Source of the DNA: Craspedostauros australis
Lineage: Eukaryota
Direction: 5' to 3'
DNA: 50,699 nucleotides
Assembly (NCBI GenBank): GCA_030167865.1
Contig: JALAGF010006411.1
Location: 1-50,699 of the forward strand
The position numbers were made by a program, and so were the translations under genes. Below are positions 1-43,156 of this stretch, in pieces. The notes under the pieces are model-generated. The model ran no database searches, was not told the origin of the DNA, and was given only the letters and a program-made list of their open reading frames with translations. The first letter of the stretch is position 1. The number at the start of each line of letters is the position of its first letter.

Positions 1-1109
1 CGAAGTGCTCTGTGGAGCAATGATCTCTGTGGAGAGTGTTGGGGTTGTGAGTTTTGTGTGCTCTGCGCTGGCCCAAGACAGCAGCCTTGTTTTGCGCGGA
101 CCGGAGACGAAAACACGCTCAGCAAACACCGACACAGTGTAAAGTGGGGAAATGGAGCAATGACGAAGAGCGAAAGCAACTCGNNNNNNNNNNNNNNNNN
201 NNNNNNNNNNNNNNNNNNNNNNNNNNNNNNNNNNNNNNNNTTCCGTCGAGGATAAGAACTAGGCGGAAACAAGCAATTTATGACTTAAACGCTATGAAAT
301 AGAGCCAATTATTGCATTTTGAACTGCCCCCCCAGCACATCAATCTGAAGCTCCTTCGTGGAAATGAATGTTGTCCAACAGTGCCAATCGTGCAAACATC
401 GCAAAGGTCAGCGCCAACTGTCTTAGGCAGTACGTATCAATCGGATCGGTAAGGGGGCACTTGGCGAGTGTAGCTCGTCGGCTGGTAACAGCAGCAACAG
501 GAAGAGGGAGGGGCGGATCCGAACCGCCAACACCGCACAGCCCATCAAAGAACGCGAACACAGAAGAAGCAAATGTGGAACGCGGCGCAACCGATGGATC
601 TGCCACGTTTCTTCCGCGCCAGTTTGCTGAATCAGCACACTGTGTCACCCAAATCCAAAAGATACTCTTCGTCTGTTCGTCCTCCGTTCACAAAATGAGA
701 TTTCAAAAGCGCGAAAAGATGATTGGTGGCTGGCGCGTCACAAGATCCCACAAAGAGGAAAGGATGCCGAAACGAGCACAAGGCATCAAGAGAAAAGAAG
801 AACCACATCTGCACGAACGAGCTACGATCAACTCCACCCATCATCATCCACAAGCAGGAGTGAACGGCAGGAACGCAACACCTTGCATTGGTTGGACCAT
901 CCGTTTGACGCTTGATCTGTTTTGTGCGTCGCCTCTGTCGATCAGGAACGGTTGCTCTCATCGCAGATCAACTGCCCTCTGCAAGTCCAAGAGCATTGGT
1001 AGGCCGCTGGATCATTCTCCAGAGTGGTGCACGTTTGGAACCCTCAAAGTCTGCTTCAATCGAACCACAGCAATAGTAACAGCAGAAGAAGAAGAAGAAG
1101 GACAGCACG

Positions 1110-4100
1110 ATGGGAGTCCCCAAGTTCTTCCGATGGCTGGCGGAACGCTATCCCAAGATCATCCAGCGCAATGGCAGCCTGCCGGAGGACGAGACCTACG
1201 GTCGCTACTTCGATCCCAACGACACGGGCGTCAAGGAACCGCCGCCGCCCTTCGAGCATCCCGATCGCATCGCCACCATCTCCACGACGCCGCCCATCGA
1301 TCGTCTCTACATCGACATGAATGGCGTCATCCACGGCTGTTCGCACAGCAACGATCACGATGAGAATGATGATGTCGCAGGTCCCGCGTCGGCTTCCATC
1401 ACGCATGAGGAGATCTTCCGCAACGTCTGCTACTATCTCGATCGCATCGTCAATGACATTGCCAAGCCCGACCAGCTCGTTTACATGGCCATCGATGGCG
1501 TCGCGCCGCGTGCCAAGCTCAACCAGCAACGATCGCGGCGGTACCGCAGCGGCCAGGAAGGTGACATTGAGCAGACGCTGTATCAGTCGCATGAGCAGGA
1601 GACGTTGGAGCGCAAGAAGAACAAGAAGAAGCGCAAGGGCAAGGGCAAGACAAAGAAGAAGGGCAAACAGGCGGATGACGACACGGATGATGACAATGTT
1701 GCTGGAACGAATGATCTCAATGACGAATTTGAATCCTACTATGGTGATGCGCTAGATCCCGAGCTTGAAGATGATGTCACCTCGACCAAAACTACAAGCA
1801 GCAACGATGGCACCTTGGAGGAGCTGGAAGATGGACGGTACCAGGGCAAGTTCATGACGGAGTTCGAAATCCCAAACCTCGAAGACGACAAGTTCCACTC
1901 CAACGCCATCACGCCAGGCACCCCCTTCTTCCAGGAGTTCACAACGCACATAGAGCATTACTGCCAGTACAAGCTCAACAACGATCCCAAATGGAAGAAC
2001 CTCACCATCATCTTCAGCGGCCCCAACGTGCCAGGCGAAGGTGAGCACAAGATCATGGACTTCATCCGCGAGCAGAAGGCGCGTCCCAACTACAACCCCA
2101 ACCTGCGCCATTGCATCATGGGACAGGACGGCGATCTCATGATGCTGGGACTCGCCACGCACGAACCCAACCTCATCCTGCTGCGTGAACGCGTCATATT
2201 CGACATGACCAAGAAGGATCTCATGCATGCCAGCAACACCGACCCGCTTGACCTCTACTTGCACAATCCGCATTTCGAACTCCTGCATCTCAGCGTGCTG
2301 CGAGATTATTTGGCATACGAATTCGGAACATCCAACGTTGAATCCTCGTCGCCGTACGACCTCGAACGCACGATCGATGACTTCGTCTTCATGACATTCT
2401 TCGTGGGCAATGACTTTCTGCCCCACATGCCGGCCATCGACATTGGGGATCATGCCTTCGATTTAATATTCCAAACCTACAAGGATTGTCGCAGGGAGTG
2501 GTTGGAGGATGATTTGGGTCTCGAACCGTACCTCACCGATTCCGGCAACATCGCCTCGGGCAGCCGCTTGGAACAGTTCCTCAGTGAATTGGGTTCTCAC
2601 GAAGTCCCGTACTACGGCAAGAAGCAGCTTTCGGCAAACTCCGACAACAAACGCATGCGCCGGCAGGGCAAACGCTTCGGACATCCCGATACCATCCCGA
2701 CCAACTCCTTGATGGATTCCAAAGAGAAGTCGGATCGGCACGCCTACCGCAGGATGCTGCAATCTGAAACATCCAAGCTGGAGAATACGGACAATGACGC
2801 GAAACAATACGATGCCAACTTCATGCCCGTCGTGGCGCAGTTCGCTGCATCCGAAGACGACAGCAAGGAAGATAAGGACATCTTCACTCGCATGGGAAAT
2901 CTGCTCAACGATTCCATCAGCAGCAAATCCAATCGCAAGGAACTGCTACGCGAACTCGATGACACCGACGTCAAGGGACGGTACTACTTCGACAAGTTCC
3001 AATTCTCACCGTTCGATGTGGACAGTCACCGCGCCTTGCGCAAGGCCTACATCGAAGGGTTGGTTTGGACGCTGAAGTACTACTACGAAGGATGCGTGTC
3101 ATGGGAGTGGTACTATCCCTATCACTACGGTCCGATGCTCAGCGATTTGGTGGAGATCGATGACATGTTGGACGAAATTAGCTTCGAAGGGAAGATGGGC
3201 AAACCCTTGGAACCCTTCCAGCAGTTGCTGGGATGCATGCCGCCGTCGCATGCCTACCATCTACCCGGACCCTACCGGCCACTGATGACGGATCCCCAGT
3301 CCCCCATCCTTGAATTCTACCCCAAGAAATTTCTCATCGACATGAACGGCAAACGATGGCCGTGGGAAGCCGTGGTGCTGCTGCCATTCATAGATTCGAA
3401 GCGGTTGATCGCGGCGTCGCAAGAAATCGATGCCAGCCAATTGACCGATGCCGAACGGGCCCGCAACGCGCCGGGTGAGACCATCGTGATGCGACATGAC
3501 ATTCGCGGCTCGGCGCCGCTGCCATCGTTGGTGGGAAACGATGGTCCTGTCCACTTTCAGGCGATTCCAAAGAACGATGTCTCCAGAACACCGTACGAAG
3601 AATCATCCTGGTACCTCGAGGGCGGGGCCAAGCAGGTGCTGAAACCCAAGCTGGAGGACGGTATTGAATATCCGTTGCCGGGATACGGATCCCTGCAAGT
3701 CGCACCGGTCCGTCGATTGAAGTGCAGCCAGATGGGTCTCAACGTCTTCGGCACGCGCAGCAGGTACAAGCTCGCATGTTTGGCTGTGGATGGCACACCC
3801 ATGTCCGAGTACGAATCGGCAGAAGAGCTTGCAAAGTCCTTGGTGGGTAACATCGTGCACATTAACTATCCCCACTTCATTGAAGCCTGGGTCACGGCGG
3901 TATGCGATGCCAAGATGGAGGTGCGTGGCAAACAAGCAACGATCAAACGACGGAGCCCGGAGGAATCAGCACAATGGCGCATTCGCCGCGATGGTATTTT
4001 ACGCACCATGCTGGCCGGTGAAAGCGTCACGGGATCAGGCGGTATTTCCATCACCGGAGAGCAACCCGCCACGGTCTTGGCCCGGCCACTGTTGAAAATC

Positions 4101-4200
4101 GACAAGACGAAGAAGAAGGGCAAGCTGGTGAAGAGGTACGCAGACTTCGAAGTTGAGGTCCCGTTGGCTTGCATCGATTGGAAACCGGTTCACACAGATC
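1110..4200 (+). other. XRN1: XRN catalytic (N-terminal plus helical) region and the start of the XRN1 D1 region, within the fusion ORF
   Basis: Acidic metal-binding motifs are all present (IDMN, IDG, GEGEHK, QDGD, GNDF). Post-catalytic segments LPGYGSL, LNVFGTRSR and INYPHFIEAWVTAVCD resemble XRN1 rather than XRN2/Rat1. The end coordinate is approximate. Confidence 0.85.
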
Positions 4201-5942
4201 GGAAATTCAATAAGCTGCCCAAGATCATCGAGAAGAACGCCTACACTCGGGCACAGAAATCGGTGCTCAAGAAATATGAAGCGACAGTGGAGCCACTCCT
4301 CCCTCCCATGGGCACGAAGGCGAGCGATGACTTTTTGGCCATCGATTGGGACGAGATGGATCTCGACACAGAGATCGAGAGTGACCACGAGAACGAGGGT
4401 GATGAGGACGAGGGTGATGAGGGCGAGGGCGACGACGACGACGACGACGTGGACATTGGAATGGAATTCGATGCTATTACCCTGCCCGATGGGGTCGTCA
4501 GCATAGACACCATCGATGATAGCGATGATGATGATGACTTTGATCCAGAGAACAATGAGGATGGTGCGGTTTCTGGAGAAGCCACGCATACGCAGACCGC
4601 GAAGGAGGGATCATCATTTTCTTCGGATGACTCATCGTTGGGAGGTACCGTCGGAGGTTCCATCCGGAGCATGTCGACATGGGCTGGCGGATATTCTGCC
4701 TCTCGTCGATGGCGTGGCGGAATGTCGCCACATCTCACACCGTTGCGTCGATCGCAAGCGTTCCTGAAACGGAATGATCGCTGGGCGGTTGCTCCGAATC
4801 ACGTGAGCAGATCGATGCATACACGCATTGGTTTGGTCGGCCAGCATCGCAATCATTCAGCATGCACAGGCCGCATGATGCGTTCCGCAGGAGGCAGGAA
4901 GAGCTTGCTGGCAGCAGGCGCCATGGCCGCCGCGTTCTTGTTTGGTTCCACCAGCGCTGATCCGCTGGCATTGTCAGGCGCGGCCACGAAGAGATGGACA
5001 GCGTCCCGACCCATGCGCAACCTGCGAAGCATTCTGCAGCCTGAACCGCTGCCAACACTCGATGATATGCTGCATATCGATGATGCGGTTCCGCACAGTC
5101 GAATCGATCTTCGTGGAGGAGACATCCCTGCATCATCTTTCCTGCCCTCCCGACCAACCCCGCCGCTGGAATTCGCGCACGGCACCACGACGCTGTCGTT
5201 CACGTTCGACGGCGGCATCCTCGTGGCCGTCGATTCTCGCGCCAGCATGGGTAGCTTCGTGAGTTCGAAGACGGTGGAGAAGGTGCTGCCGATCAACTCG
5301 CACATCCTCGGCACCATGGCCGGCGGCGCCGCCGACTGCCTGTTCTGGATTCGCAAGATCCAATCCGAAGCTCTTCTGCATGAGCTGTGCGAGAACGGCC
5401 GGCGCATGTCGGTGGCGCGGGCGTCGCGGCTGCTGTCCAACGCGCTGTACATCAACCGCAGTTTGGGTCTGTCGGTGGGCACCATGATCATGGGCTTTGA
5501 CGATGATGGCAGCGGTGCCGATACTGCGGCACGAAGAAGACGGCTGTTGCCACGTATCTTCTACGTCGACAACACGGGTGTCCGCATCGAGGGTGACATG
5601 TTCTCGGCAGGATCCGGCAGCACGTTCGCTCTGGGCATCTTGGACACGGAACGACGCCCGGATATGAAGAAGGAAGAAGCAGTCGCGCTGGGCATCAAGG
5701 CCATCCGCCATGCGACATTCCGCGATGCCTACTCCGGCGGCTTCATCAACGTGTACGTTCTAACGCAGGATGATGGATGGCAGAAGGTGTTTTCGGAAGA
5801 TCTGGCCAGTCATCAACATCAGCAGCAGCATACAGCAGCAGGTGGCGTCACGAATGCATCAAGCGCCATGGAAGATGCCGAGGCGGGCCCGAAGAGAGGC
5901 AGCGGCGAAGGCACACATGAACATGATGGCCAGGATCTTTGA
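1110..5942 (+). CDS. XRN1-type 5'-3' exoribonuclease fused to proteasome subunit beta type-5 (single intronless ORF, 1610 aa)
   Basis: Canonical XRN start MGVPKFFRWLAERYP, with in-frame TAG/TAA at 1074-1079 just upstream. XRN motifs: LYIDMNGVIH, AIDGVAPRAKLNQQRSRR, NAITPGT, PGEGEHKIMDFIR, GQDGDL, GNDFLPH, YIEGLVWTLKYYYEGCVSWEWYYPYHYGP, FQQLLGCMPP, DMNGKRWPWEAVVLLPFID. Beta5 motifs: HG|TTTLSF, DSRAS, K33, GTMAGGAADC, GSGS, RDAYSGG. No stop codon between the two domains. Confidence 0.92.
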   Translation: MGVPKFFRWLAERYPKIIQRNGSLPEDETYGRYFDPNDTGVKEPPPPFEHPDRIATISTTPPIDRLYIDMNGVIHGCSHSNDHDENDDVAGPASASITHEEIFRNVCYYLDRIVNDIAKPDQLVYMAIDGVAPRAKLNQQRSRRYRSGQEGDIEQTLYQSHEQETLERKKNKKKRKGKGKTKKKGKQADDDTDDDNVAGTNDLNDEFESYYGDALDPELEDDVTSTKTTSSNDGTLEELEDGRYQGKFMTEFEIPNLEDDKFHSNAITPGTPFFQEFTTHIEHYCQYKLNNDPKWKNLTIIFSGPNVPGEGEHKIMDFIREQKARPNYNPNLRHCIMGQDGDLMMLGLATHEPNLILLRERVIFDMTKKDLMHASNTDPLDLYLHNPHFELLHLSVLRDYLAYEFGTSNVESSSPYDLERTIDDFVFMTFFVGNDFLPHMPAIDIGDHAFDLIFQTYKDCRREWLEDDLGLEPYLTDSGNIASGSRLEQFLSELGSHEVPYYGKKQLSANSDNKRMRRQGKRFGHPDTIPTNSLMDSKEKSDRHAYRRMLQSETSKLENTDNDAKQYDANFMPVVAQFAASEDDSKEDKDIFTRMGNLLNDSISSKSNRKELLRELDDTDVKGRYYFDKFQFSPFDVDSHRALRKAYIEGLVWTLKYYYEGCVSWEWYYPYHYGPMLSDLVEIDDMLDEISFEGKMGKPLEPFQQLLGCMPPSHAYHLPGPYRPLMTDPQSPILEFYPKKFLIDMNGKRWPWEAVVLLPFIDSKRLIAASQEIDASQLTDAERARNAPGETIVMRHDIRGSAPLPSLVGNDGPVHFQAIPKNDVSRTPYEESSWYLEGGAKQVLKPKLEDGIEYPLPGYGSLQVAPVRRLKCSQMGLNVFGTRSRYKLACLAVDGTPMSEYESAEELAKSLVGNIVHINYPHFIEAWVTAVCDAKMEVRGKQATIKRRSPEESAQWRIRRDGILRTMLAGESVTGSGGISITGEQPATVLARPLLKIDKTKKKGKLVKRYADFEVEVPLACIDWKPVHTDRKFNKLPKIIEKNAYTRAQKSVLKKYEATVEPLLPPMGTKASDDFLAIDWDEMDLDTEIESDHENEGDEDEGDEGEGDDDDDDVDIGMEFDAITLPDGVVSIDTIDDSDDDDDFDPENNEDGAVSGEATHTQTAKEGSSFSSDDSSLGGTVGGSIRSMSTWAGGYSASRRWRGGMSPHLTPLRRSQAFLKRNDRWAVAPNHVSRSMHTRIGLVGQHRNHSACTGRMMRSAGGRKSLLAAGAMAAAFLFGSTSADPLALSGAATKRWTASRPMRNLRSILQPEPLPTLDDMLHIDDAVPHSRIDLRGGDIPASSFLPSRPTPPLEFAHGTTTLSFTFDGGILVAVDSRASMGSFVSSKTVEKVLPINSHILGTMAGGAADCLFWIRKIQSEALLHELCENGRRMSVARASRLLSNALYINRSLGLSVGTMIMGFDDDGSGADTAARRRRLLPRIFYVDNTGVRIEGDMFSAGSGSTFALGILDTERRPDMKKEEAVALGIKAIRHATFRDAYSGGFINVYVLTQDDGWQKVFSEDLASHQHQQQHTAAGGVTNASSAMEDAEAGPKRGSGEGTHEHDGQDL
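5184..5942 (+). other. PSMB5: Predicted mature proteasome beta5 (chymotrypsin-like, Ntn-hydrolase) domain within the fusion ORF
   Basis: Thr1 codon at 5184 (aa 1359), preceded by His-Gly. Counting from Thr1 gives Asp17, Lys33, Met45 and Cys52 at the same positions as in beta5/Pre2. Confidence 0.93.
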
Positions 5943-5948
5943 TACTCC

Positions 5949-5974
5949 AGAGAGAGAGAGAGAGAGAGAGAGAG
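5949..5974. repeat. (AG)n microsatellite
   Basis: Run of agagag directly 3' of the fusion ORF stop codon. Confidence 0.9.
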
Positions 5975-8713
5975 CGCGGACTCAATCCTATAATACCTGC
6001 GTACATTGTTGCGTGAGTGGAATGCGTTGCGCGTTGTGTTTATCCCGTTCACTGAAGATAGCAAGAAAGAGCACATTTTCCTACAGACTGTCTCCTCTCA
6101 TCCTGTTCTTGGGAGGTATGGCACAGAGAGGAAGCCTGCTGGATCCACTTGGATGCGCTTACTCTAATACTAAGACGAGTATAGAACACCACGAGTACTC
6201 TATGTTGACAGGAGGTACACGATCGCGGTGAACTCGTTAAGGCCGTGCCGAAAGATCCGCGCAAGGATAGGACAGCAGCTTCGATGCACCAGCTTCCAAT
6301 TCATGCCTGACATGCCGATGCGTCCGACCAGCAGTGAGTGACGCGACATGTTGCCTTGTTCATTGTGATCATCGTTTCGCTGCTGTGGAGGGTAACCGCA
6401 ACATCGAGACGTGCGACCGATCCTAGATGATGACATGCAGTGCGGCGTCGTTTGTTTCGAACAGCGGCAGGCGAGGGAGGACTGCGGCAACGTTGGTGCT
6501 TGTGGGCGTCCACACAGCATGCAGATGCACGCTGCTGCTCGTTTGATTCTGTTTGTGCAAGTGGCCGCGACGGCATCTGTGTTGCTCCTCATGGTGGAGC
6601 TCTGCATGCTCGTGCGGTCAATGGACGTGGTGGTTTGCGGCATCACTTGCCGTCGATGTCCAACATCTCTTTCCATCATAACCACGCAGGGGGGCCTGTG
6701 GGGTACACCTCGCTGCGCCAACGCATCGCCGCACCCATGATGGTGAGAGAACCCTCTTGATTGAGAAGCGGCACCCATACACTCTCGGGGTATCGGAGGT
6801 GCTTGGTTGGCCTCCGATTCATGGACCATCCGAGTGGTTGATGTGGGCATGGTGATGGTGGGTGAGGAGCATGACGCTTCTGCGGGTCGGAATCGTATCT
6901 TGTAGAGGATTGGTGTATGGCAGAAACACAAGAGACACCACTGATACTCGGATGGTACGAATGCCATCAACAGACAGAATGGAGAAACGATCGCGATGAC
7001 GTCAAATGAGTGAAGGCATGAAAAGGAGGAACGGCAGCATGGTGCGTCCGAGCGAAGCATAATCCTCTTTGTGATCCTCCCTTGAAGGACTATGACTACA
7101 TCCGAGTGAAGCGACGGCCCACAGCAACAGCTCTTCCCGCACCTTCTCGCCGAAATAGAAGAACAGAATATCTCAATTGGGACTCCGCACAAAGGTCTGA
7201 ATCCACCAGGGACGCACGCAACGTCGTTTTTACCATGGGCGTTGCTCGACGGGAGTAGCTCGCCGAAGATACATTCGCAGTGCCGTTTCACGCCTGGTTT
7301 GGGACTGTTTTGGTGTGTCGGAGGAGAAAAGCTTCACCATTGCGCACCGACAGGGGCACAACTACTCGTAGTTGTAAGAAAGCACCTTGTGATAGGCACA
7401 GAAACAGCGAAAAAGGCTGGAAAGCTCGTGCGATGCCACGAGCAGAGACGCTGTGACGAATATAATCATATTATGAGCTGCTTCTCGACAAGGAGCACAT
7501 CGTGTATGCACGTGCCACATCGCTTGTACATGTGGCACATCGTACAGTGCACAATGCTACGACGCAGCGAAGCGCGCTGCCGCGACATCACCGCCACAGA
7601 AACGAGAATCGCGGGTGGATTGGAAATTGTAGTGACAATTCTCATGCTCACCTGCCTCAAAGTCCAACGCGCCGGACTGTGCGCGGCGCTCACCAAATTT
7701 CCTGGGTGCACGTTGATTCATGTGTATTGCGGTCATTTGGGACTCATGCTGGCGGCAAATGGCACGCCCGCCTCGTTGTGATCCACCAACGTTCCACGCG
7801 ATGTTGGCACACGGTGCCGATGCGTCAAGGTTTTACCGTACGCGAGCGAGCATTGGGCGTTGCCAGAGCCACAACACGGCAGAGGCAACCACACACAAAC
7901 ATCACAAAGGAGCAAGATCGCACAGAGTACCACATCACATGTCATCGCATTTTGCTGCATCGCATTGCATTGCACAACATCGCATTTGAGAATTCATCAC
8001 ATCACATCACAAGATAAGAGTAGTAGAGTTGAGTCAAGTAGAGTCGAGTTGATTCGAGTTGAGGATTGTACAAGAGACCATTGGATGTATTGAGTTGATC
8101 TCTCAATCGGTGTAACAAACGCAACAGGAGAAAAGGAGAGACCACGACAGCGCAACCCATTTCGCCAACAACGAGGTGCTCGAAGCGACGCAGAAACAAG
8201 CACACAGCCGTGCAAACGCATTGGGAGGCGCGAAAAACGGTGTTGCGGCGAAACCCAACGCACAAAATCAGAAGCACAAGTAATTTCTCGTACAACGCAG
8301 GCGAAGGCAAGCAAGAGTATTGTCGCAACAGTGGCGCCAAACCGACCATACATACTTGCTCTACTTGCATAGAGTACTTCAGTAGACAGCAAGCAAGCGT
8401 CGGCGTACCGACTTGCAGCAGTGCTCCTGTTCCGTACTCTACCGTGCCATACTGACATAGTGACATACCATCATACCATACAATACTGCTACGAGTGTTG
8501 GTGGAGTGATCGAGCCGGAGGACACCAAGAGAGGCAGCAAGAGATAGACAGTGACAGTGAGAGTGACAGTCACACCTTCACAGACGCAACAGAAGCAACA
8601 GAAGCAACCAAGACACCAACCCACAACAACATCAACACCCACACAGTTTCATCTATACTACACTCTCCCCCAACCCGTAGGACCATCATATTATATCAAG
8701 CGCAAACACAAAG

Positions 8714-11748: not shown

Positions 11749-13934
11749 TCAGGACGACTCGGTAGCCGCAGCCTCGCTGCTTCCTTCTGTCGTGGTTATC
11801 TGCTGCCCCTCGCTGGATTGCGATTCTTGCAAACTGGCAGCGATGGCCATGGCCATTTGCTCCTCTTCGGTAATGCCTCGCAGCAGCATCGAAGCAGCGT
11901 CGAGTGCCGCCGAGTTGGAGGATGAGGATGCGGTGGAGGACATGGATGAGGAGGAGAACAGACCGCGGCTTCCGAAGATCAAGGGGGTGCTGTGCCTTCC
12001 CGCGGTGCGATTCCTGCGGCCGGATCCTACCCCGAAACGGAGTCCGCCGCCGCTGCCTGATATGTTCATTCTTCGCGACAACTGCTGCAATGGATCGTCA
12101 GTTGAGGAGGATGCCGACGCAGCCCCGCCATTGATATGCCGTTCCAGAAATCTGCGCACCAACGGGAAGCCATCCCTGGCATGCTGCGCCGCGTCGAAAT
12201 CCTCCTCCGATTCTCCGTCCTGCTGCGCCTCCTCCATGGATACCACGATGGCGGCCTCCAGCAGGATGAGATCGTCGAGTGACTGGATGGAACGCTCGCC
12301 TGAGCTTTCGTAAGCATCCACGACGCTGAACCAATCCCTGCCGGTGCCGCCAAGCATCATGCGACGGTGCCTGCCAAGGCTGTTGCGCAAGGCGGTGTGC
12401 TGACCCTGCTGTGTTGTGTAGTAGTTGCGCTGGTTTTGCAACGTCCGCTCTGCCGCCTCTGCCTGCAGGCGCAGCGTCAGCGGGTGATTGTGCTGCGCCT
12501 TCATCTGATTTTCCAACTTCCTTCGATCCTCGCTCGACATGGCGATCGCCTGGATGAGGGAGTCATCGGCGCTGGCACCATTGACGATATTGCTCGCGCT
12601 GGCATCCGACGAGGCGAAGGATTCAGAACGTTTCCGCATGATCTCTGCCACGCGATCATCCTGCTGCAGCGACGAGCCAAACCCGCCAAAGCTCTTGCTC
12701 CGATTTCTCGTCGCGATGTCGCTGTTCTCCTTGTTGCCGCCGTCATCGTCCCCACCATTGCCACCGTTGTTATCGTTGTTGCTCGATTCAGAACCACCTG
12801 CATTTGATTTGCTCGATGATGATACGGGTGGGGCCGTCTCCTGCAGCAGCTGCTGAGATTGCTCCTCCTTGAGCCGCTGCTCTGCCTTCTTCTTGGCCTC
12901 CATTATTCGCTTCTGCTCCTGATCTTCTGCGGCAATCTCTTCGTTGGAAGTCGTTGCGATGTGGACGCTGAGCTTGGGGGCGTTGCAGTATGGACACGGT
13001 GATGCTTTCTGGTTCTGCGGTCGTACCTGCAGGTAGCATTCTGTGCATATGTGGGCATGGCAGCATTTGGTCATGTTGACTTGCCGATAGTACAGGAAGC
13101 AGATGGGACACTCGATGGCACTCTTCTCGGCTTTGCCTGTGGTGGTATTGCCGCTCGTCTTGGGAAGCACCTTCGTCTCGGATCCTTTCATCCTGGCCGC
13201 CAGCTTGCCATCGCCCACCAGTTTGCGAATTGCCTTGGTCTCCCATTCGCACGATGCGTACAGGCTGGTCCGCGCAAGTGGTTAGCAGAGGTGGGTGGAA
13301 TGTTGTCGAATGTCGTCGAATGAAGCGGTGAAAAAGAAGGGAGAAGGTAGAACCGGCAGGGACGCGAGTATCAGCAGCAAGATGGATGATGATGATGATG
13401 GAGTATGATAAAGGAGATGGAGATGCATTCATCCCATATCATGCGTCAAATCGCATGTTGGAGTACATGTTAGGTTGCATCAGATCATCCACGAGAGGCA
13501 TAAAGGCAAGGTGCACGTATGTATGCATGCATGCATGCATGGATAGAGAACACGAATGGACAGCAAGTGGGAAAAAGGCAATTGATGTGAGATTGATGCA
13601 TGCGTTGATGTTGATGTCGACAGTGTTCTTGCTGCTGCCCTTCCTCTCCCTTCCTCTCTCTGTCTCTCTCTACTGCCGGTCCATCCATCTCATGGTGCAA
13701 CGCGATGCCTCCTCCATTTCAGACCTGTTTGGAACCACCCCACACGGTCACAATGAGAGCTAATTTTTTCTCAAGCACTCCACCACGCAGAACTCACCCT
13801 GATGGTTGGCAGCGTTTGTCCAGGTCCGCCTTCGACAATCCCAAGGCGTGACCGCTGCGGAATGGCACCGACACGCGATGGTGGCGATGGCCGTTGCCAT
13901 CGGAGCTGGAGGATTGGGAATGCTGGTTGCCCAT
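11749..13934 (-). CDS. GW2/DA2/Sip5-type RING E3 ubiquitin ligase with N-myristoylation motif and C-terminal UIM (~550 aa); exons 13934-13798 and 13264-11749
   Basis: Exon 1 reads MGNQHS...LDKRCQPSG and splices (GG|GTGAGT ... CCAG|C) to LYASCEWETKAIRKLVGDGKLA. RING: ECPICFLYY...KCCHAHICTECY...CPYC. GW2-like DDLILLEAAIVVSM segment. UIM: TEEEQMAMAIAASLQE. Confidence 0.87.
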
Positions 13935-31450: not shown

Positions 31451-34400
31451 CTAGGAGCGTCTGGTGCCGCCATCTCTGTCGTTGTTGTTATTGTTGTAAC
31501 CGCGTCCGCCGCCACGTCCTCGGCCACGACCGCCATAACCTCCACGGCCACCTCCGCTATAGCCTCCACCTCCGCCATAACCTCCACGACCACCTCCGCT
31601 GTAGCCTCCACCTCCGCCATAACCTCCACGGCCGCCTCCGCTATTGCCTCCACGACCACCATAGCCTCCGCGACCGCGTCCACCACCTCTTCCGCCTCGT
31701 CCACGTCCACCGCCGCGTCCACCACCTCTGCCGCCGCCGCGGCCTCCGAATCGTCCCCGGCCGCCACCACGGCCACGTCCACGCCCGCGGCCACCGCCGT
31801 CCTTCCAGTCTTCGCGGTATCCATGGTTGCCGCTCTCGGCATCCATCAAGCGTTCGTTGGCATCGGTGAGGTGGGACACTCTGTCGGCGTATCGCAGCGA
31901 CCTGATCTGCAGGAGCGATGGTCGAACATTTTTCAGCACGCAGGTTTCTGTTGGCTGATCCCACGTGGCGGAGACCTCGCGGTTGATGATCATCTTGGAG
32001 ATGACGCAATGGATCTCGTTCTTCGACATTTCGAACATGCCGCAGAGCTGGGCCAGAGACAGGGATTCGTACTGTCCAGAGAAGGCGAACATGTAGGTGC
32101 GCAGACCTTCCAGCTTGATCTTTTCGGTGAGCATGACCTGGAGATCCTTGCGAGCATTCTCGCCTGGCAGCAGCCTCCACACCTTAAGGTTGGTGGTGAG
32201 GTCGACGCACGTCTTCCAATCACCCTTGAACAGCGCCTTGGCGGAACGCATGACGAAGTCACGTGTTTGCTCTGGCGGTCCCGTGAAGACCTGGTGGTTG
32301 TACATGTCGTAGAACTTGCGGAAGGTGCGGGAGATGACGTTCGTTCGTCTCGTGTTGGTCTCGCCAGCAGCCAGGATGGAGGCCATATTGGGGATCTCCA
32401 GCAGCATGGCGCTGATGAGGTGGCACGCCTCGAGCAGATCCAGGTTGATGTGCTGATGGTACGGAATCTGCCGACGCTTCTCGGCCTTCTCCTGCTCCTG
32501 CGTCTTGTCGTGGTATCGCGCCATGCCTTGGGCTAAGGCCTCGCGCACGCGTCCGGCGCAGACCTCGCTGAGGCATTTGTGGGCCTCGTAGATCTTGCCG
32601 TGACGGAATGCGCACATACCGAGGGTCGCCATCATTCTGTTGAAGAGGATCAAGGTCGCGGAATCCTCGGATTGGTAGATCTTATCCTGAAGGTGCGACA
32701 TGAGCAGCAGATCGCGGGCCTCGAGGAAGCGGTCGTGCAGGGCATGGTGGAAGACGCTGCAGATGATGGCCTTCGTCTTGGCGCCTTCCGAACCGTTCTT
32801 GAACATGAACTTGCAAAGGTCGTTGAGCTGCTGCGACAGATCGATCTCGTCGTCTGGCTCTGGCAACACGGGCTTGCCAAGCGCAGCGGCGGGGTGGGAC
32901 ACGGCGAAGTCATCGCTTCCCTTCTCGTTGGTGATGCAGGCAGGGTGCAGAGCCGCGACGGCTCCGAACTGCTTGTTGTACTCGGCTGCCTTATCGACCT
33001 GCTTGGCGATGGTGTCGTGCCTGTAGTACAGATGCTCGATGCGGCGTTCCGCCAAACGTGTTGCCTCGAGGGTGTCACCTTCACGCTCGTAGTAGGCTTG
33101 CATCTTGCCCATGAGCTTGAGGAGTCGCGATTCGTCGAGCAGCTTGGCGACGTAGTCGCCGGAGTGCTGGGAGGCGTTCTGCAGACTCTTCGTGTACTCC
33201 TCCTCCAATCGCGTGACGTGCAAGGAGAGCGATCCGACCACCTTGATCTCCTTCTTTTCCTCGTCGCTCAGTGCCTCCTCCTTCTCCACGCGCAGACGCT
33301 CCGCGCGCTGGTCGGAAGTCTCCGGCTCGCCGGTGTGAGGATTGACAAGCTCCTCCTTCTGCCCCATGGCGGCGATGGCACCATCCGTGCCGATGGCGCT
33401 GGCCTTCATCTTGGCACCCGTTCCGACGAGCATGTCGGCCTCATCGATGGTCTCCATGCCCAGATGGTAGCCTTCGTCGACGAGGACCATGGCGATGCGC
33501 TCGAGGTAGGACGTGCAGGATCTCCAGAGGGCGGAGTCCATGTAGTCATCCATGGTCTTGTTGAGACCGAACTGGGCGCTGATGACGTACATGAGAACGG
33601 GGATCTCAATGCGCGGTCCGAACTGCGTGGACATGCGGTAGATCCCCTCGAGCTGGCGCAGGACCTGGCGGTTGTCGGTTCCCTTGCGTCCGCGCAAAGA
33701 GGCGAGCTCCTTGATCTTGCGCTGGATGACTGCCGCGGTGAGGCCTTCCTCCGGGATGACGGTCTTTGGCGCGCGGATGGCTTCGTGATCGCGCGACACG
33801 GTGGTCTCCTTTTTGATGGCATCGGCCTGCTTGGCACCTTCGGCCTTTGGCTCCTGCTTCTTCTTCTCCTTCTTGGATGGGACGGTGTTCTTCTTCAACC
33901 AGCGGGCGCGTCCCTTGAGCTGAGAGTAGGCACCGGCCTCTTCGTCTGAGCTTGCGGAGTTGTCGGAATCGGAGTCCCAGTTGACGGACTTGTTGTCATC
34001 GTCGTCGTCGCCGTCACTGTCGGAGTCCGAATCGCTGTCGCTGTCGGAATCCTGTGGAAGATGAGAGGATTGGATTGTGAATGGAAAGTGTTCATGTTGG
34101 TGTTGGTGAGGTGCATGATCGGTGTTAGAAATGGAAAAGAGTGTGGGTACGTGCACGAGCACGAGCACAAGGAGGATGGAATAGAAGAGCTTCATGCATG
34201 ATAGCGCAGCATCCATGTTCATCTGTTTGCGCTCGCGAATGCCCGTCCACTCCAGCAAACCAGCTGAGAGGGAGAACGGACACAGAAACAAACAGGATCC
34301 ATCTCTCCTCCTCCTCTCCCTTCGCCTCGCCTCGAGCATGGGACAACCATGGTGCATCATGGCGTTTGCACCGTTTCACTATCACTCAAGTACTGAATTG

Positions 34401-40477: not shown

Positions 40478-43156
40478 TCATCCTGATAACAATTCGTTCA
40501 ATGCTTGATCCATGTTGTTGTCATGCTTCGCCAATGCCGCCACCACCTTGGCGGGATCAAACTCCATCCCCACCAACGTCGCCACCTTCTCATCATCGAC
40601 GCGTGGTCCAGGTGGTTGCGATGGCGGTGGTTGCTGATGATACGACTGTTGCTGCTGCTGCTGCGAATGGGGTGGTAGTTGCTGTGACGATGACGGCTGC
40701 TGCTGCTGCCCGCCACGATTGTTCTCACTCATGCGCTTGGCGAAGGCGGCATCCTCCAGCTCCTGACGATTGCGATCGGCGGTGTCATCATACTCGCAGC
40801 GTTCCATCGTCAATCGCGCGCTGACATCACCCACTTGCTGCTTCAATTTCTCCAATTTGGGAATGACGACGTCGTAGAAATCCTTGCCCTCCTTGAGATG
40901 CTTCGTGAGCTGCTCGATCTCATCCATCGCATCTTCGATCATGGCGATGCAGGAGTCGGAGGCCGAGGCGGGGGAGTTGGGATTCGTGCCGTTCGCGGGA
41001 CCACCGTAGGGTTGCCGCATCGTATGCTGCCGCGCGCGTTGGAAATGCTCGTTCTCCGCAAATATCTTTTGCAGCAGGTCCTTCTGCGTCTCCATATTCT
41101 GCTCCAGATCGTAGAGCACGGGACCTTCCTGGACGGTCTGCTGCGCGGCACGCAGGGCGCTGTGATAATCCTGCTCTGCGCTGGGCGCGGCGGCATCGAC
41201 CGCGACGAGCTGCGAGTGGACGTCGGCCTTGGCAATCTCCTCCTTCAGAGAGGACAGCAGGACGTCTCGTTCGTGAAACAGCGTGGACAATTCGACCAGC
41301 AGGCGCGACAGATGCGACGTGTCGATCGTCGGCTGCTGCGGATGCGCGTTGGCATCCATCCCGCCGCCGTTGATCCCCGGCAGCAGGCGATCCAACTGCG
41401 CCTTCTGAAACTGCAGCAGCTTGTACTTGGGATTCGTGTCGAGTATTTCGAGCCGCCTGAGCAGCACCTGATCACCCTCCTGCGCCGTGACGAGCAGTCG
41501 GTCGTAATTCCCCAACGAATGCCGGAACGTGCGCTGCACCTCCATGGCGTCGTGCCCCTCGAAGTGCGGCTTCTGCTGACGGAAGTGCTGGTCGCATTCC
41601 AGGTCCAAATCCAGCTGCGATTCGATCGTCTTGTAGGTCGTGCGGGCCTGTTCGGCGACGTCGCGCAGTCCCCATAGATCCGATTTGAGCTGCTGCAATT
41701 TTTTGGTCTTCTGTATCGTCTGCACGCGGTCCCACAGCTCGTCGGGGATGCCGCCACCGGACTGCTCCTGGCGGTAGGCCGTGAGGGAATGCGGGAGGTG
41801 CACGGACGCGAGTGCCTTGCGGGCATTCTCTGTGCGCTCCTCCGCGATGGTGGTCATTTGGAAGAAGTACTTGTCCATGTCGTTCTGGAATATGTCGACG
41901 TAGCGACGCACGCTGGGCGCGAGGAGGTTGGCGAACATGGGTTTTGCCGCGAGGGCCTTGGGTCCGCCGCCCAGCACCTTGTCGATGGGCTGATCGACGT
42001 TGACGAGCTTCTCGCCGCGGATCTCTGGCAGTCCGGAGCGGTCCGGTATGGGCTGCTGCTTGGACTTCTTCTTGCCCTCCGCGGCCGCCGCGTTCTTCTC
42101 GTCGTTGTAGTCCTTCATGGCCTGGTCGTAACGCTGCTGCAGGTCGGTGGTGTGGGTCTCGACGGTCTGCTGCAAGGTGAGGAGGTTGGAGGTGACGTTG
42201 GTCTCGCAGAACTCCATGCACAAGGTGCCGAAGCGGATGGATAGATCGAGGCGCGCAATCTCCAGACCATTCTGCTGTCGATCGTGGTGGATGCAGGCCT
42301 GATGATGCTCGGCGCACGAGGACATGTACATGCCCCAGGCCCTGACGTGGTCGGTCCAATTGCGGATCGTGGGCGAGGCGGTGACCATGGCCCGCACGTT
42401 GGCGGCATCCGCAGACGCCAGACGCTCGCATTCATGGAACAAGGGCACGGCCGCGGCGGCGATCTTGGCCAGCAGCAGATGCCTGGGTTTCCGCGCGCAG
42501 GCCAAGGACTCGTAGACGCAGCGCTGCGACATGGCGACCAGCATGGCCTGCCAGAGCTGCAGGAAGGGCGGCTGCAGGTCCGATTGGCTGTGGTGCGGCC
42601 TTGATCGCTGCGTCTGCTGCGTGTGCATGGCCCGCACCAAGGTGGCAGCATTCTGCAGATGCGACGCCGCCTTGCTCCAGCCTGGCTTGCTCTTGAGCGG
42701 CTGCTGCGTGGCCTGGAAGGTGGAGAGGACCGCGAGGTTCCACATGACGTTCCAGCGCTCCCACGCGAGGGAGTGCGAGACGTCCAGCAGCTCGACGTTG
42801 GGCGACGCGATGCCGCCGGCCTGCCAATGCAGCTGCAGCATGGGCGCGCCCTCCGCGTCCGTGACGATGCCGCGATTCTCGCACTCCTGCAGGCAGCAGT
42901 GGTACTCCTGGTGCTCGGCCAACGATTGCAGGGCGTCCGCGTAGGCGTCGTTGGATGGCACGGCGATGCGGCCGCGCAGGTCCTGCAGCCGCTGCAGATC
43001 GGCCCTGCATTCGGCGGCCGTGAACTCCGCGGTGGACTGCGCAGAGCTGTCCAGCCACGACGACAGCATCTGCACGACGTCGTCGGACGCGGAGGGTATC
43101 CTCAGCGGCAGCAGCACGATGGACAGCGGCGAGTCCGCTGTGTCTGCGGTGCTCAT
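40478..43156 (-). CDS. BRO1/ALIX-family ESCRT-associated protein with C-terminal UBA domain (892 aa)
   Basis: BRO1-like LAWERWNVMWNLA and AMSQRCVYE segments, G-EIARL, ALIX V-domain LASVHLPHSL...GIPDELW, and UBA KVATLVGMEFDPAKVVAALAKHDNNMDQALNELL. Confidence 0.87.
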   Translation of the reverse strand: MSTADTADSPLSIVLLPLRIPSASDDVVQMLSSWLDSSAQSTAEFTAAECRADLQRLQDLRGRIAVPSNDAYADALQSLAEHQEYHCCLQECENRGIVTDAEGAPMLQLHWQAGGIASPNVELLDVSHSLAWERWNVMWNLAVLSTFQATQQPLKSKPGWSKAASHLQNAATLVRAMHTQQTQRSRPHHSQSDLQPPFLQLWQAMLVAMSQRCVYESLACARKPRHLLLAKIAAAAVPLFHECERLASADAANVRAMVTASPTIRNWTDHVRAWGMYMSSCAEHHQACIHHDRQQNGLEIARLDLSIRFGTLCMEFCETNVTSNLLTLQQTVETHTTDLQQRYDQAMKDYNDEKNAAAAEGKKKSKQQPIPDRSGLPEIRGEKLVNVDQPIDKVLGGGPKALAAKPMFANLLAPSVRRYVDIFQNDMDKYFFQMTTIAEERTENARKALASVHLPHSLTAYRQEQSGGGIPDELWDRVQTIQKTKKLQQLKSDLWGLRDVAEQARTTYKTIESQLDLDLECDQHFRQQKPHFEGHDAMEVQRTFRHSLGNYDRLLVTAQEGDQVLLRRLEILDTNPKYKLLQFQKAQLDRLLPGINGGGMDANAHPQQPTIDTSHLSRLLVELSTLFHERDVLLSSLKEEIAKADVHSQLVAVDAAAPSAEQDYHSALRAAQQTVQEGPVLYDLEQNMETQKDLLQKIFAENEHFQRARQHTMRQPYGGPANGTNPNSPASASDSCIAMIEDAMDEIEQLTKHLKEGKDFYDVVIPKLEKLKQQVGDVSARLTMERCEYDDTADRNRQELEDAAFAKRMSENNRGGQQQQPSSSQQLPPHSQQQQQQSYHQQPPPSQPPGPRVDDEKVATLVGMEFDPAKVVAALAKHDNNMDQALNELLSG

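What the first reader, a model, noticed from the sequence alone, without database searches (positions are those of the whole stretch)
1110..5942. XRN1 exoribonuclease and catalytic proteasome beta5 encoded in one continuous ORF
Seen in sequence: a stop-free 4833-nt ORF, with no N gaps, joins a complete XRN catalytic core to a complete beta5 subunit, and the catalytic residues of both are retained. Established: beta5 precursors autocleave at Gly(-1)/Thr1 during 20S assembly, and their propeptides are normally under ~100 aa. Inference: the whole 1358-aa upstream part, including XRN, sits in the propeptide position. It could be released by Ntn autoprocessing (a self-cleaving polyprotein) or could tether RNA decay to proteasome assembly. 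I do not know of a described XRN-proteasome fusion, but I could not search for one.
Basis: partly seen in the sequence, partly recalled or inferred. Interest (0 to 1): 0.93.

Follow-up and report, generated by a model that had tools for sequence, protein, structure and literature searches.

The report
Diatom XRN nuclease–proteasome β5 fusion gene
This diatom gene really does encode an RNA-degrading enzyme and a proteasome cutting subunit in one reading frame, as in over a hundred other diatom sequences, and a conserved signal-peptide-like stretch between the halves suggests the protein is split so that each half works in a different cell compartment.

Summary
Window 1110-5942 (+) is one stop-free 1610-codon ORF with an intact XRN1-type core and an intact proteasome β5 domain.

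It is neither chance nor misassembly. 114 of 116 long homologues found with the β5 end carry XRN and Proteasome Pfam domains together. All named ones are diatoms, including eight transcriptome ORFs. I found no paper describing this fusion.

All 115 fused sequences have a basic patch, a 15-30 aa uncharged hydrophobic stretch and a small-residue (-3,-1) end, 51-126 aa before Thr1. In two diatom lineages the same β5 is a separate gene with this element as its N-terminal signal peptide. This β5 clade is strongly diverged from canonical β5.

Best reading (about 0.5): an internal ER signal splits the product. XRN stays cytosolic. Pro-β5 enters the ER and probably the periplastidial compartment (PPC), whose published 20S subunit set lacks β5.

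Not shown here: a separate housekeeping β5 in diatoms, the localisation, the cleavage, or any RNA or protein evidence from this organism.

The parts
1110..2189 (+). XRN_N catalytic domain (aa 1-360). It starts with the canonical MGVPKFFRW and has no N-terminal targeting signal. It contains a K/D-rich insertion of about 90 aa (aa 155-245).
   Evidence: Pfam PF03159 E 4.9e-85, profile positions 1-240 of 241. Alignment to PDB XRN1/XRN2 chains with the acidic motifs kept, and a gap in the alignment between query residues 154 and 245.
2355..3485 (+). XRN_M helical domain (aa 416-792).
   Evidence: Pfam PF17846 E 7.1e-96.
3678..4172 (+). XRN1 D1 domain (aa 857-1021). The conserved end of the XRN part (...LPKIIEKNAY) follows at about aa 1036-1045.
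   Evidence: Pfam PF18332 E 6.6e-10. The motif was located and its counterpart (LEKN/LEKDP) is seen in homologues.
4308..4667 (+). Acidic, low-complexity first part of the linker (D/E runs). It is poorly conserved.
   Evidence: Translation. GC3 falls here.
4668..4901 (+). Basic, Ser/Thr-rich, acid-poor part of the linker, ending in ...MMRSAGGRK directly before the hydrophobic stretch.
   Evidence: Across 115 fused sequences, the stretch from 60 to 8 aa before the hydrophobic segment has K+R 15%, D+E 3% and S+T 22%, against 11/15/13% in the XRN bodies. At least 2 K/R occur in the last 8 aa in 112 of 115, and any acidic residue there in 5 of 115. GC3 is 0.54.
4902..4958 (+). Internal signal-peptide-like hydrophobic stretch SLLAAGAMAAAFLFGSTSA (aa 1265-1283), with a small-residue (-3,-1) end (S-T-S-A | D-P).
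   Evidence: An uncharged stretch of 15-30 aa (median 18) is present in 115 of 115 fused sequences, starting 51-126 aa (median 75) before Thr1. A crude (-3,-1) site was found in 113 of 115. AlphaFold2 predicts a helix at pLDDT about 60. The homologous stretch is N-terminal in stand-alone beta5 genes.
4959..5183 (+). Pro-region (aa 1284-1358): first a mildly basic S/T-rich part, then an RGG motif (aa 1335-1337, nt 5112-5120), an acidic part, and PPLEFAHG ending in Gly(-1).
   Evidence: Composition figures. RGG lies 15-60 aa before Thr1 in 54 of 115 and is the majority residue in alignment A1. The model is low-confidence or disordered here.
5184..5804 (+). Mature beta5-type Ntn-hydrolase domain, from Thr1 (aa 1359).
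   Evidence: Pfam PF00227 E 1.8e-42. PDB beta5/beta5i/Pre2 matches at E 1e-58 to 3e-60 with the catalytic residues kept. pLDDT is mostly above 90.
5805..5942 (+). Non-conserved C-terminal tail and stop codon. A public contig that is probably a transcript runs on to about 6202.
   Evidence: Translation. One contig of run X1 covers 5494-6202 with 0 other letters. X1 is only guessed to be RNA.

Best explanation
This is a genuine fused gene that is conserved across diatoms. Its N-terminal 1050 aa or so form a catalytically intact XRN1-type 5'-3' exoribonuclease with no N-terminal targeting signal. Its C-terminal 330 aa or so form a complete precursor of a divergent, diatom-specific beta5 paralogue. 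That precursor brings its own ER-type signal peptide, which in the fusion lies about 1260 aa inside the chain.

Proposed mechanism (inferred, not shown):
1. XRN is translated and folds in the host cytosol.
2. When the basic-plus-hydrophobic element emerges from the ribosome, the nascent chain is taken to the ER or chloroplast-ER translocon with its N-terminus in the cytosol.
3. The pro-beta5 part is translocated.
4. Signal peptidase cuts after the small-residue end of the hydrophobic stretch.

This would leave XRN in the cytosol, possibly tethered to the membrane by the leftover hydrophobic stretch. The freed pro-beta5 has a non-aromatic first residue and a short S/T-rich extension. It would be passed on into the periplastidial compartment (PPC) and join the PPC 20S subunits already described. 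Gly(-1)/Thr1 autolysis would then remove the last 50-80 aa.

My sub-confidences: real, conserved and co-transcribed fusion, 0.95; the linker element acts as a membrane-targeting signal, about 0.6; PPC as the destination, about 0.45.
For: Fusion. 114 of 116 hits of 885-2818 aa to the beta5 end carry PF00227 plus XRN Pfam domains. Named genome hits are Cylindrotheca, Fistulifera, Nitzschia (two), Mayamaea, Seminavis, Conticribra, Thalassiosira sp. and a Bacillariaceae MAG. Eight are transcriptome ORFs: Pseudo-nitzschia, Detonula, Skeletonema, two Corethron, the Ditylum cluster, and two others.

Signal element. 115 of 115 sequences have the uncharged hydrophobic stretch, 112 of 115 have at least 2 K/R just before it, and 113 of 115 have a crude (-3,-1) site. 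By contrast, most canonical beta5 hits listed have no comparable hydrophobic 15-mer before Thr1 (best Kyte-Doolittle (KD) hydropathy mean mostly below 1.0).

Natural split forms. Leptocylindrus aporus-type and Thalassionema nitzschioides-type beta5 proteins start with this hydrophobic stretch as an ordinary N-terminal signal peptide. On metagenome contig L001 the Leptocylindrus-type gene stands alone. Its upstream neighbour is on the other strand, and none of 10 ORFs within about 10 kb upstream and 7 kb downstream has an XRN domain. In the beta5 tree both split groups sit among fused lineages, so the breaks fell just upstream of the signal.

Paralogue-like divergence. On the mature domain, median identity is 53% (maximum 62%) between diatom-type and canonical sequences, against 75% among 52 canonical sequences. 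All 167 diatom-type sequences lie behind a stem of 1.19 substitutions per site with support 0.81.

PPC link. Moog et al. 2011 (PMC3101018, passages read) report PPC-targeted alpha2, two alpha7, beta2, beta3, beta6 and beta7 in P. tricornutum, five of them confirmed by GFP, but no beta5. Their screen began from N-terminal SignalP hits on gene models, so an internal signal would have been missed. Their rule for PPC residents is a signal peptide followed by a first residue that is neither aromatic nor Leu. My crude site prediction gives an aromatic residue or Leu at +1 in only 12 of 113.

No conserved internal start. A Met lies near the hydrophobic stretch in 70 of 115, against about 54% expected by chance.
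Against: No signal-peptide or diatom-targeting predictor was available. The cleavage site and the +1 residue come from a home-made rule.

I did not find a separate canonical beta5 from any named diatom. The best 120 of 4249 hits and the best 120 of 4823 hits contain none. The closest canonical group turned out to be foraminifera. So the claim that this beta5 is a paralogue rests on divergence and on the signal alone.

The roughly 50 aa before the hydrophobic stretch are strikingly basic, S/T-rich and acid-poor. This looks more like a presequence or transit peptide than is needed for membrane orientation, and my model does not explain it.

GC3 in the middle of the linker is close to non-coding levels, which would also fit a former intergenic spacer.

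In Thalassionema only about 24 aa separate the signal peptide from Thr1, which is short for a transit-like part.

There is no RNA or protein evidence for this organism, and nothing here shows localisation or cleavage.
Confidence: 0.5

Rival explanations
1. This is the cell's working (possibly only) beta5. The whole XRN-plus-linker acts as a giant propeptide, and the fusion enters cytosolic 20S assembly. Gly(-1)/Thr1 autolysis then releases XRN, coupling XRN supply to proteasome biogenesis. The hydrophobic stretch would be an assembly or chaperone element and not a targeting signal.
For: Gly(-1)/Thr1 and the whole catalytic set are intact. The frame is conserved in 114 homologues. No named canonical diatom beta5 turned up in the two lists of 120 best hits.
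Against: The conserved signal-like element (basic patch, hydrophobic stretch, small-residue end) occurs in 115 of 115 sequences, and it serves as a plain N-terminal signal peptide in stand-alone genes. The clade is only 53% identical to canonical beta5, while those are 75% identical to each other. From general knowledge of 20S assembly (recalled), beta propeptides end up inside the closed particle, which is hard to reconcile with a folded 120 kDa domain. The missing canonical copy is weak evidence, because few rows carry names and thousands of hits were not listed.
Confidence: 0.2
2. Two gene products from one locus by separate expression. Beta5 is mainly made from its own transcript or start codon just upstream of the hydrophobic stretch (here Met1256/1257), giving an ordinary signal-peptide precursor. 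The long fusion ORF is a tolerated or minor read-through form of XRN.
For: In this window MMRSAGGRK plus the hydrophobic stretch would make a textbook N-terminal signal peptide. GC3 drops to near non-coding values in 4400-4860 and recovers from about 4860. Short 'complete' transcriptome ORFs that begin near the signal exist (P0128). The only contig of this organism's sequence found covers just the 3' end.
Against: A Met near the signal is present in only 70 of 115, about chance level, and is absent in the Pseudo-nitzschia, Nitzschia inconspicua, Conticribra and Corethron sequences. If the fusion product did not matter, XRN would be expected to keep its own stop codon. Instead the frame stays open through a poorly conserved linker in 114 homologues. 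Short transcriptome ORFs may simply be fragments; P0166 proved to be one.
Confidence: 0.15
3. The hydrophobic element targets beta5 somewhere other than the PPC. It could be ER-lumenal or secretory. Or, reading the basic S/T-rich stretch plus the hydrophobic stretch as a bipartite presequence, it could be a mitochondrial intermembrane-space or thylakoid-type sorting signal.
For: The 50 aa before the hydrophobic stretch are presequence-like (K+R 15%, D+E 3%, S+T 22%). R-x-(F/Y/L)-(S/A)-T-like motifs recur upstream in the homologues shown. The RR/RGR plus Ala/Gly-rich core with an AxA end also resembles Tat-type signals (my recollection of that consensus).
Against: The stand-alone forms have only a short, plain N-terminal signal peptide with no presequence-like part. 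An internal presequence behind a 1250-aa folded domain is not a known import route. A lone beta5 in the ER lumen or in mitochondria would have no known 20S partners, whereas PPC partners are published.
Confidence: 0.12
4. Artefact: a misassembly, or a chance open frame across two neighbouring genes.
For: Only the low codon bias in the linker.
Against: The same architecture appears in 114 independent sequences from genomes, metagenomes and transcriptomes. This frame has 0 stops where the other two forward frames have 7 and 25. There are no Ns in the ORF.
Confidence: 0.02

Closest known systems
Periplastidial (PPC) 20S proteasome subunits of Phaeodactylum tricornutum: s-alpha2, s-alpha7-1/2, s-beta2, s-beta3, s-beta6, s-beta7 (Moog et al. 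2011, PMC3101018; passages read)
   Same: A cytosol-type 20S subunit that carries an ER signal peptide, then a short extension whose first residue is (by crude prediction) neither aromatic nor Leu. It is found in diatoms and would supply the beta5 position missing from the published set.
   Different: Here the signal is internal, behind a complete XRN exonuclease, so it fails the 'N-terminal BTS' definition. Its localisation is untested. No red-algal or host origin was established.
Canonical beta5 precursors (yeast Pre2/Doa3, human PSMB5/PSMB8)
   Same: The same fold and catalytic set (Thr1, Asp17, Lys33, GSGS, RDAYSGG), Gly(-1)/Thr1 autoprocessing site and GTMAGGAADC pocket motif. The best PDB matches have E 1e-58 to 3e-60.
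   Different: 1358 aa lie upstream, against under about 100 in canonical precursors. There is a hydrophobic signal-like stretch in the pro-region that canonical beta5 lacks. Median identity to canonical sequences is only 53%, and the clade sits on a long stem.
XRN1/Pacman/Kem1 5'-3' exoribonucleases (PDB 6q8y, 3pie, 2y35)
   Same: XRN_N, XRN_M and D1 domains with the conserved acidic motifs, and the canonical MGVPKFFRW start.
   Different: No D2-D4/SH3-like domains were detected by Pfam at E <= 0.01. There is a K/D-rich insertion of about 90 aa in XRN_N. The usual long disordered C-terminal tail is replaced by a linker leading into a signal peptide and beta5.
Polyproteins split by internal signal sequences and signal peptidase, such as the flavivirus capsid-prM junction or engineered internal signals
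   Same: The proposed logic is the same: a cytosolic N-terminal part, an internal hydrophobic signal with an AxA-type end, and a lumenal C-terminal part freed by signal peptidase, leaving the upstream protein membrane-tethered.
   Different: This is a cellular nuclear gene joining two unrelated housekeeping families. Cleavage has not been demonstrated.

Membership tests
XRN1-type 5'-3' exoribonuclease | XRN_N and XRN_M domains above Pfam gathering scores | tested here: met
   PF03159 scores 285 bits (cut-off 22.9) and PF17846 scores 322 bits (cut-off 23.8).
XRN1-type 5'-3' exoribonuclease | Conserved acidic active-site motifs | tested here: met
   LYIDMNG, AIDGVAPRAK, PGEGEHK and GQDGDL align with solved XRN1/XRN2 chains. 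GNDFLP is seen in the translation. The residue numbering of the catalytic Asp/Glu is recalled, not computed.
XRN1-type 5'-3' exoribonuclease | XRN1-specific C-terminal domains (D1, and D2-D4/SH3-like) | tested here: inconclusive
   D1 is found (PF18332, 39.5 bits, cut-off 26.2). No D2-D4 family appears at E <= 0.01.
20S proteasome subunit beta5 | Proteasome (Ntn-hydrolase) domain with beta5 as the closest subunit type | tested here: met
   PF00227 scores 145.6 bits. The top PDB matches are all PSMB8, PSMB5 or Pre2.
20S proteasome subunit beta5 | Gly(-1)/Thr1 and the catalytic residues Asp17, Lys33, Ser129/Asp166/Ser169 | tested here: met
   HG|TTT, AVDSRAS, EKV (Lys33 by counting from Thr1), GSGS and RDAYSGG in the alignment. 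These residues are invariant in alignment A1 of 33 sequences.
20S proteasome subunit beta5 | Orthology with the housekeeping (cytosolic/nuclear) beta5 | tested here: inconclusive
   It falls in a diatom-only clade of 167 sequences behind a stem of 1.19 substitutions per site (support 0.81), with 53% median identity to 52 canonical sequences. Whether diatoms have another beta5 was not settled.
PPC-targeted proteins of diatoms (criteria of Moog et al. 2011) | N-terminal bipartite signal: a signal peptide followed by a transit-like part | tested here: not met
   In the window and in the 114 fused homologues the signal-like element is internal, about 1260 aa from the N-terminus here. It is N-terminal only in the stand-alone Leptocylindrus-type and Thalassionema-type genes.
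PPC-targeted proteins of diatoms (criteria of Moog et al. 2011) | First residue after the signal peptide is neither aromatic nor Leu | tested here: met
   The crude (-3,-1) rule gives F/W/Y/L at +1 in 12 of 113 predicted sites; 2 of 115 sequences gave no site. No SignalP, ASAFind or HECTAR was available, so this is approximate. In the window the +1 residue is Asp.
PPC-targeted proteins of diatoms (criteria of Moog et al. 2011) | A second, host-cytosolic copy of the essential protein exists in the same genome | not tested
   The window's genome is not held. No named diatom canonical beta5 appeared in the listed hits.
PPC-targeted proteins of diatoms (criteria of Moog et al. 2011) | In vivo localisation to the PPC | not testable with these tools
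   This needs GFP fusions or immunolocalisation.

The most novel reading that the evidence does not exclude
Diatoms encode a cellular two-compartment polyprotein. One mRNA yields a host-cytosolic XRN1 exonuclease and, through an internal ER signal peptide cut by signal peptidase, the catalytic beta5 subunit of the periplastidial 20S proteasome, which has been missing from the published set. The cut would leave XRN1 tail-anchored on the chloroplast-ER surface. This would physically place 5'-3' mRNA decay at the membrane where plastid-bound proteins are translated. It would also tie the supply of the PPC proteasome's main active site one-to-one to XRN1 synthesis.
Probability: 0.35. Interest if true: 0.88.

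Novelty: new variant of a known kind. Interest (0 to 1): 0.78.

Why it matters
Both halves belong to textbook families, but this combination has not been described in the literature I could search. It appears only as unremarked database entries.

It matters for three reasons. First, the published set of PPC-targeted 20S subunits in diatoms lacks beta5. A signal-bearing beta5 hidden behind XRN would fill that gap, and it would explain why screens that start from N-terminal signal peptides missed it.

Second, an internal signal peptide splitting a cellular protein between two compartments would be an unusual way to express a gene. It can be tested directly in Phaeodactylum or Thalassiosira with standard tagging.

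Third, the fusion has held across centric and pennate diatoms, with at least two natural splits placed just before the signal. That gives a ready comparative system for asking what the linkage is for.

Tried and rejected
- **Own genome:** not held. I could not check for stand-alone XRN1 or beta5 in this organism.
- **Sequencing runs:** no RNA holder is listed. The one run, X1, holds 0.09 of the sampled words. Laid on 900-6300, it gave one 709-nt contig over 5494-6202 plus a 956-nt contig with only 21-24-nt chance-sized matches, and nothing over the linker.
- **Search for a canonical diatom beta5:** the best 120 of 4249 hits and the best 120 of 4823 hits to the nearest canonical sequence, P0224, contain no named diatom. 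Cluster look-ups of 20 canonical candidates gave no taxon names except foraminifera (Rosalina, Elphidium, Nonionella, Bolivina). P0166, which looked like a signal-less diatom beta5, is an ORF that starts at an internal Met of the pro-region of a fused type.
- **ESM Atlas:** two calls returned only generic proteasome clusters.
- **Earlier scan notes:** nothing relevant.
- **Papers:** four searches for the fusion found nothing relevant, and searches were also uninformative. The supplements of Moog et al. 2011 (the list of PPC candidates with protein IDs) were closed. Stork et al. 2012 (PMC3536273) is not held. Either could show whether a PPC beta5 or this gene model was noted before.
- **XRN-half search of 1.84 billion representatives:** the top hits are again fused diatom forms. 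One XRN-only relative (P0392, 1195 aa) has no hydrophobic tail, but it may be truncated, so I drew no conclusion from it.
- **AlphaFold2 of the signal, pro-region and beta5 part with 33 sequences:** the beta5 fold is confident, the hydrophobic stretch is a helix at pLDDT about 60, and the pro-region is below 50. This adds nothing decisive, and I ran no fold search.
- **Internal start codon as the conserved mechanism:** rejected. A Met lies near the signal in 70 of 115, against about 54% expected.
- **Chance ORF or misassembly:** rejected.
Full report
**1. The observation**

Window 1110-5942 (+) is a single ATG-to-stop ORF of 1610 codons. Pfam finds XRN_N (aa 1-360), XRN_M (416-792), XRN1_D1 (857-1021) and Proteasome (1357-1550), all far above their gathering scores.

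The N-terminal 400 aa align with solved XRN1/XRN2 chains, and the motifs LYIDMNG, AIDGVAPRAK, PGEGEHK and GQDGDL are kept. The C-terminal 278 aa match beta5/beta5i/Pre2 chains best (E 3e-60 to 1e-58). HG|TTT, Asp17, Lys33, GSGS and RDAYSGG are all kept. Thr1 is aa 1359, nt 5184.

No N lies within the ORF. Between 3900 and 5300 the other two forward frames hold 7 and 25 stops and this frame holds none.

**2. The fusion is not peculiar to this window**

I searched the 5.8-billion-protein collection with residues 1150-1610, restricted to proteins of 885-2818 aa. This gave 116 hits, and 114 of them carry PF00227 together with the XRN domains PF17846 and PF18332; most also carry PF03159. The two exceptions are a fish cadherin-PSMB model and a Reticulomyxa multidomain protein.

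Every named fused hit is a diatom:
- Genome models: Cylindrotheca closterium, Fistulifera solaris, Nitzschia inconspicua, Nitzschia sp. Nitz4, Mayamaea pseudoterrestris, Seminavis robusta, Conticribra weissflogii, Thalassiosira sp., and a Bacillariaceae MAG.
- Transcriptome ORFs (eight): Pseudo-nitzschia, Detonula, Skeletonema, Corethron (two), the Ditylum brightwellii cluster, and two unnamed MMETSP entries.

So the two halves share one reading frame, and in several species one assembled transcript, across both centric and pennate diatoms. Four full-text searches found no paper on such a fusion.

**3.

Reading twelve full sequences showed that the otherwise unalignable linker always contains a basic patch, then a hydrophobic stretch rich in Ala, Gly, Leu and Phe, then a small-residue end.

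I measured this on 115 sequences: the window plus the 114 fused hits, with the two non-diatom hits left out.
- All 115 have an uncharged stretch of 15-30 aa (median 18), starting 51-126 aa (median 75) before Thr1.
- 112 have at least two K/R in the eight preceding residues, and only 5 have an acidic residue there.
- A crude (-3,-1) rule finds a signal-peptidase-type site in 113 of 115. The residue after it is aromatic or Leu in 12 of 113.

Most canonical beta5 proteins in the same listing have no comparable hydrophobic 15-mer before Thr1. In the window the element is ...MMRSAGGRK-SLLAAGAMAAAFLFGSTSA|DP..., aa 1265-1283, nt 4902-4958.

**4. Natural split forms**

Among shorter relatives (best 120 of 4249 listed), several begin with this very element as an ordinary N-terminal signal peptide. 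These include the Leptocylindrus aporus cluster (P0168, P0239, P0240 and others) and the Thalassionema nitzschioides cluster (P0156, P0248).

I fetched a 24.6-kb metagenome contig that encodes a protein 100% identical to P0240. There the beta5 gene (L001 9995-10969) stands alone. The upstream neighbour is a VTT-domain gene on the other strand. None of the 10 ORFs tested, within about 10 kb upstream and 7 kb downstream, has an XRN domain.

In a FastTree of the mature domain, both split groups sit among fused lineages with moderate support. The tree used 222 of 259 stored proteins; those without the Thr1 motif, or with fewer than 190 aa after it, were dropped. The simplest history is therefore an old fusion with at least two later splits. 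In both splits the break fell just upstream of the hydrophobic stretch, turning it into an N-terminal signal peptide. This argues strongly that the element is a targeting signal belonging to beta5.

**5. The beta5 half is a divergent diatom-type lineage**

All 166 diatom-type sequences, plus P0170 (a fragment of a fused form, as P0250 shows), lie behind a stem of 1.19 substitutions per site with support 0.81. One fish model attaches beside them, probably by long-branch attraction.

Median identity on the mature domain is 53% (maximum 62%) between diatom-type and canonical sequences. Among the 52 canonical sequences it is 75%. That canonical sample is what happened to return, so it is not a designed sample.

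**6. Link to known biology**

Moog et al. 2011 (PMC3101018; passages of the Introduction, Methods, Data Mining and Protein Turnover sections read) report PPC-targeted alpha2, two alpha7, beta2, beta3, beta6 and beta7 in P. tricornutum. Five were confirmed by GFP. They found no beta5 and no 19S subunits.

Their screen began with SignalP on the N-termini of gene models. They treated cytosol-type proteins that carry a signal peptide as PPC candidates whatever the length of the transit-like part. A beta5 whose signal lies behind XRN would have escaped that screen.

Cavalier-Smith 2017 (PMC5756292; passages read) likewise describes diatom periplastid 20S proteasomes that lack the cap.

**7. Mechanism proposed (inferred)**

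XRN folds in the cytosol. The internal signal then engages the ER or chloroplast-ER translocon, with its basic side facing the cytosol. Pro-beta5 is translocated and freed by signal peptidase, passes into the PPC, and matures by Gly/Thr autolysis. XRN is left in the cytosol, perhaps tethered to the membrane.

Shown here: the architecture, its conservation, the properties of the signal-like element, and the split forms. Inferred: targeting, cleavage, the PPC destination, and tethering.

**8. Evidence against this reading, and what remains unexplained**

- I could not show that diatoms have a separate housekeeping beta5. No named diatom appears in the two lists of 120 best hits. Look-ups of 20 canonical candidates gave only foraminiferal names. 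All three homologue searches and all three cluster look-ups are now spent.
- The roughly 50 aa before the hydrophobic stretch are basic, S/T-rich and acid-poor (K+R 15%, D+E 3%, S+T 22%, against 11/15/13% in the XRN bodies). That is more than membrane orientation requires.
- GC3 falls from 0.70-0.80 to 0.54-0.60 over about 4400-4860 and recovers at the signal. This fits a former spacer and keeps the separate-expression rival alive. However, a Met near the signal is no commoner than chance (70 of 115).
- No RNA holder was listed for this organism. The only contig covers 5494-6202.
- The AlphaFold2 model adds only a confident beta5 fold, a helix at pLDDT about 60 for the hydrophobic stretch, and a low-confidence pro-region.

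**9. Verdict**

The fusion is real, is conserved across all named diatom hits, and was not described in any paper I could find. However, the junction most likely works through an internal signal peptide and not through beta5 autolysis alone, and the beta5 half is most likely a compartment-specific paralogue. The supplements of Moog et al. 2011 and the paper by Stork et al. 2012 could not be read and may bear on the novelty claim.

Noticed in passing
window 5112-5120 (aa 1335-1337) and homologues: An RGG motif, usually (L/I/V)RGG(D/E), lies 15-60 aa before Thr1 in 54 of 115 fused sequences and is the majority residue in alignment A1. It marks the change from a basic S/T-rich part of the pro-region to an acidic part, and it resembles the C-terminal end of ubiquitin. 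It might be a processing site, for a transit-peptide peptidase or a deubiquitinase-type enzyme, but this is unexplained.
   Followed up: partly
window 4400-4860: Third-position GC drops to 0.54-0.60 here, against 0.70-0.80 in both enzyme domains and about 0.50-0.53 in the flanking non-coding DNA, yet the frame stays open. GC2 is unusually high (0.64) in 4668-4901.
   Followed up: partly
window 4668-4901 and homologues: The roughly 50 aa upstream of the hydrophobic stretch are presequence- or transit-peptide-like (basic, S/T-rich, almost no D/E). R-x-(F/Y/L)-(S/A)-T-like motifs recur here in several homologues, for example RGFAT, RKFST and, in the window, RSMST.
   Followed up: partly
window 1572-1844 (aa 155-245): There is a Lys/Asp-rich low-complexity insertion of about 90 aa inside the XRN_N domain, between the AIDGVAPRAK and PGEGEHK motifs. 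It is absent from the solved XRN1/XRN2 chains. Insertions of varying length and composition occur at the same place in other diatom homologues.
   Followed up: no
homologues P0013, P0022, P0026, P0077, P0114: Some fused homologues additionally carry a SAP domain (PF02037), and two also carry PF13297, according to the precomputed Pfam lists. Their position in the protein was not examined.
   Followed up: no
P0105 and P0109: The only non-diatom long proteins with a beta5 domain were a fish 'cadherin-24 isoform' model that includes a PSMB domain (probably a gene-model merger) and a Reticulomyxa filosa protein combining G-alpha, guanylate kinase and Proteasome domains.
   Followed up: no
window 368-1363 (+): A 331-codon ORF in another frame overlaps the start of the XRN ORF. 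It has no Pfam match and is probably not a gene. An N run at 184-240 lies in the AT-richer upstream region.
   Followed up: partly
window 31451-34360 (-), 40478-43156 (-), 11749-13191 (-): The neighbouring ORFs are ordinary eukaryotic nuclear genes: eIF3c (eIF-3c_N plus PCI), a BRO1/ALIX-type protein, and a weak RING-finger match (below gathering).
   Followed up: no
L001 2683-6722 (-): On the Leptocylindrus-type metagenome contig, adjacent minus-strand ORFs carry DEAD/ResIII helicase and DSHCT domains. This is probably one Ski2/Mtr4-type helicase gene interrupted by introns.
   Followed up: no
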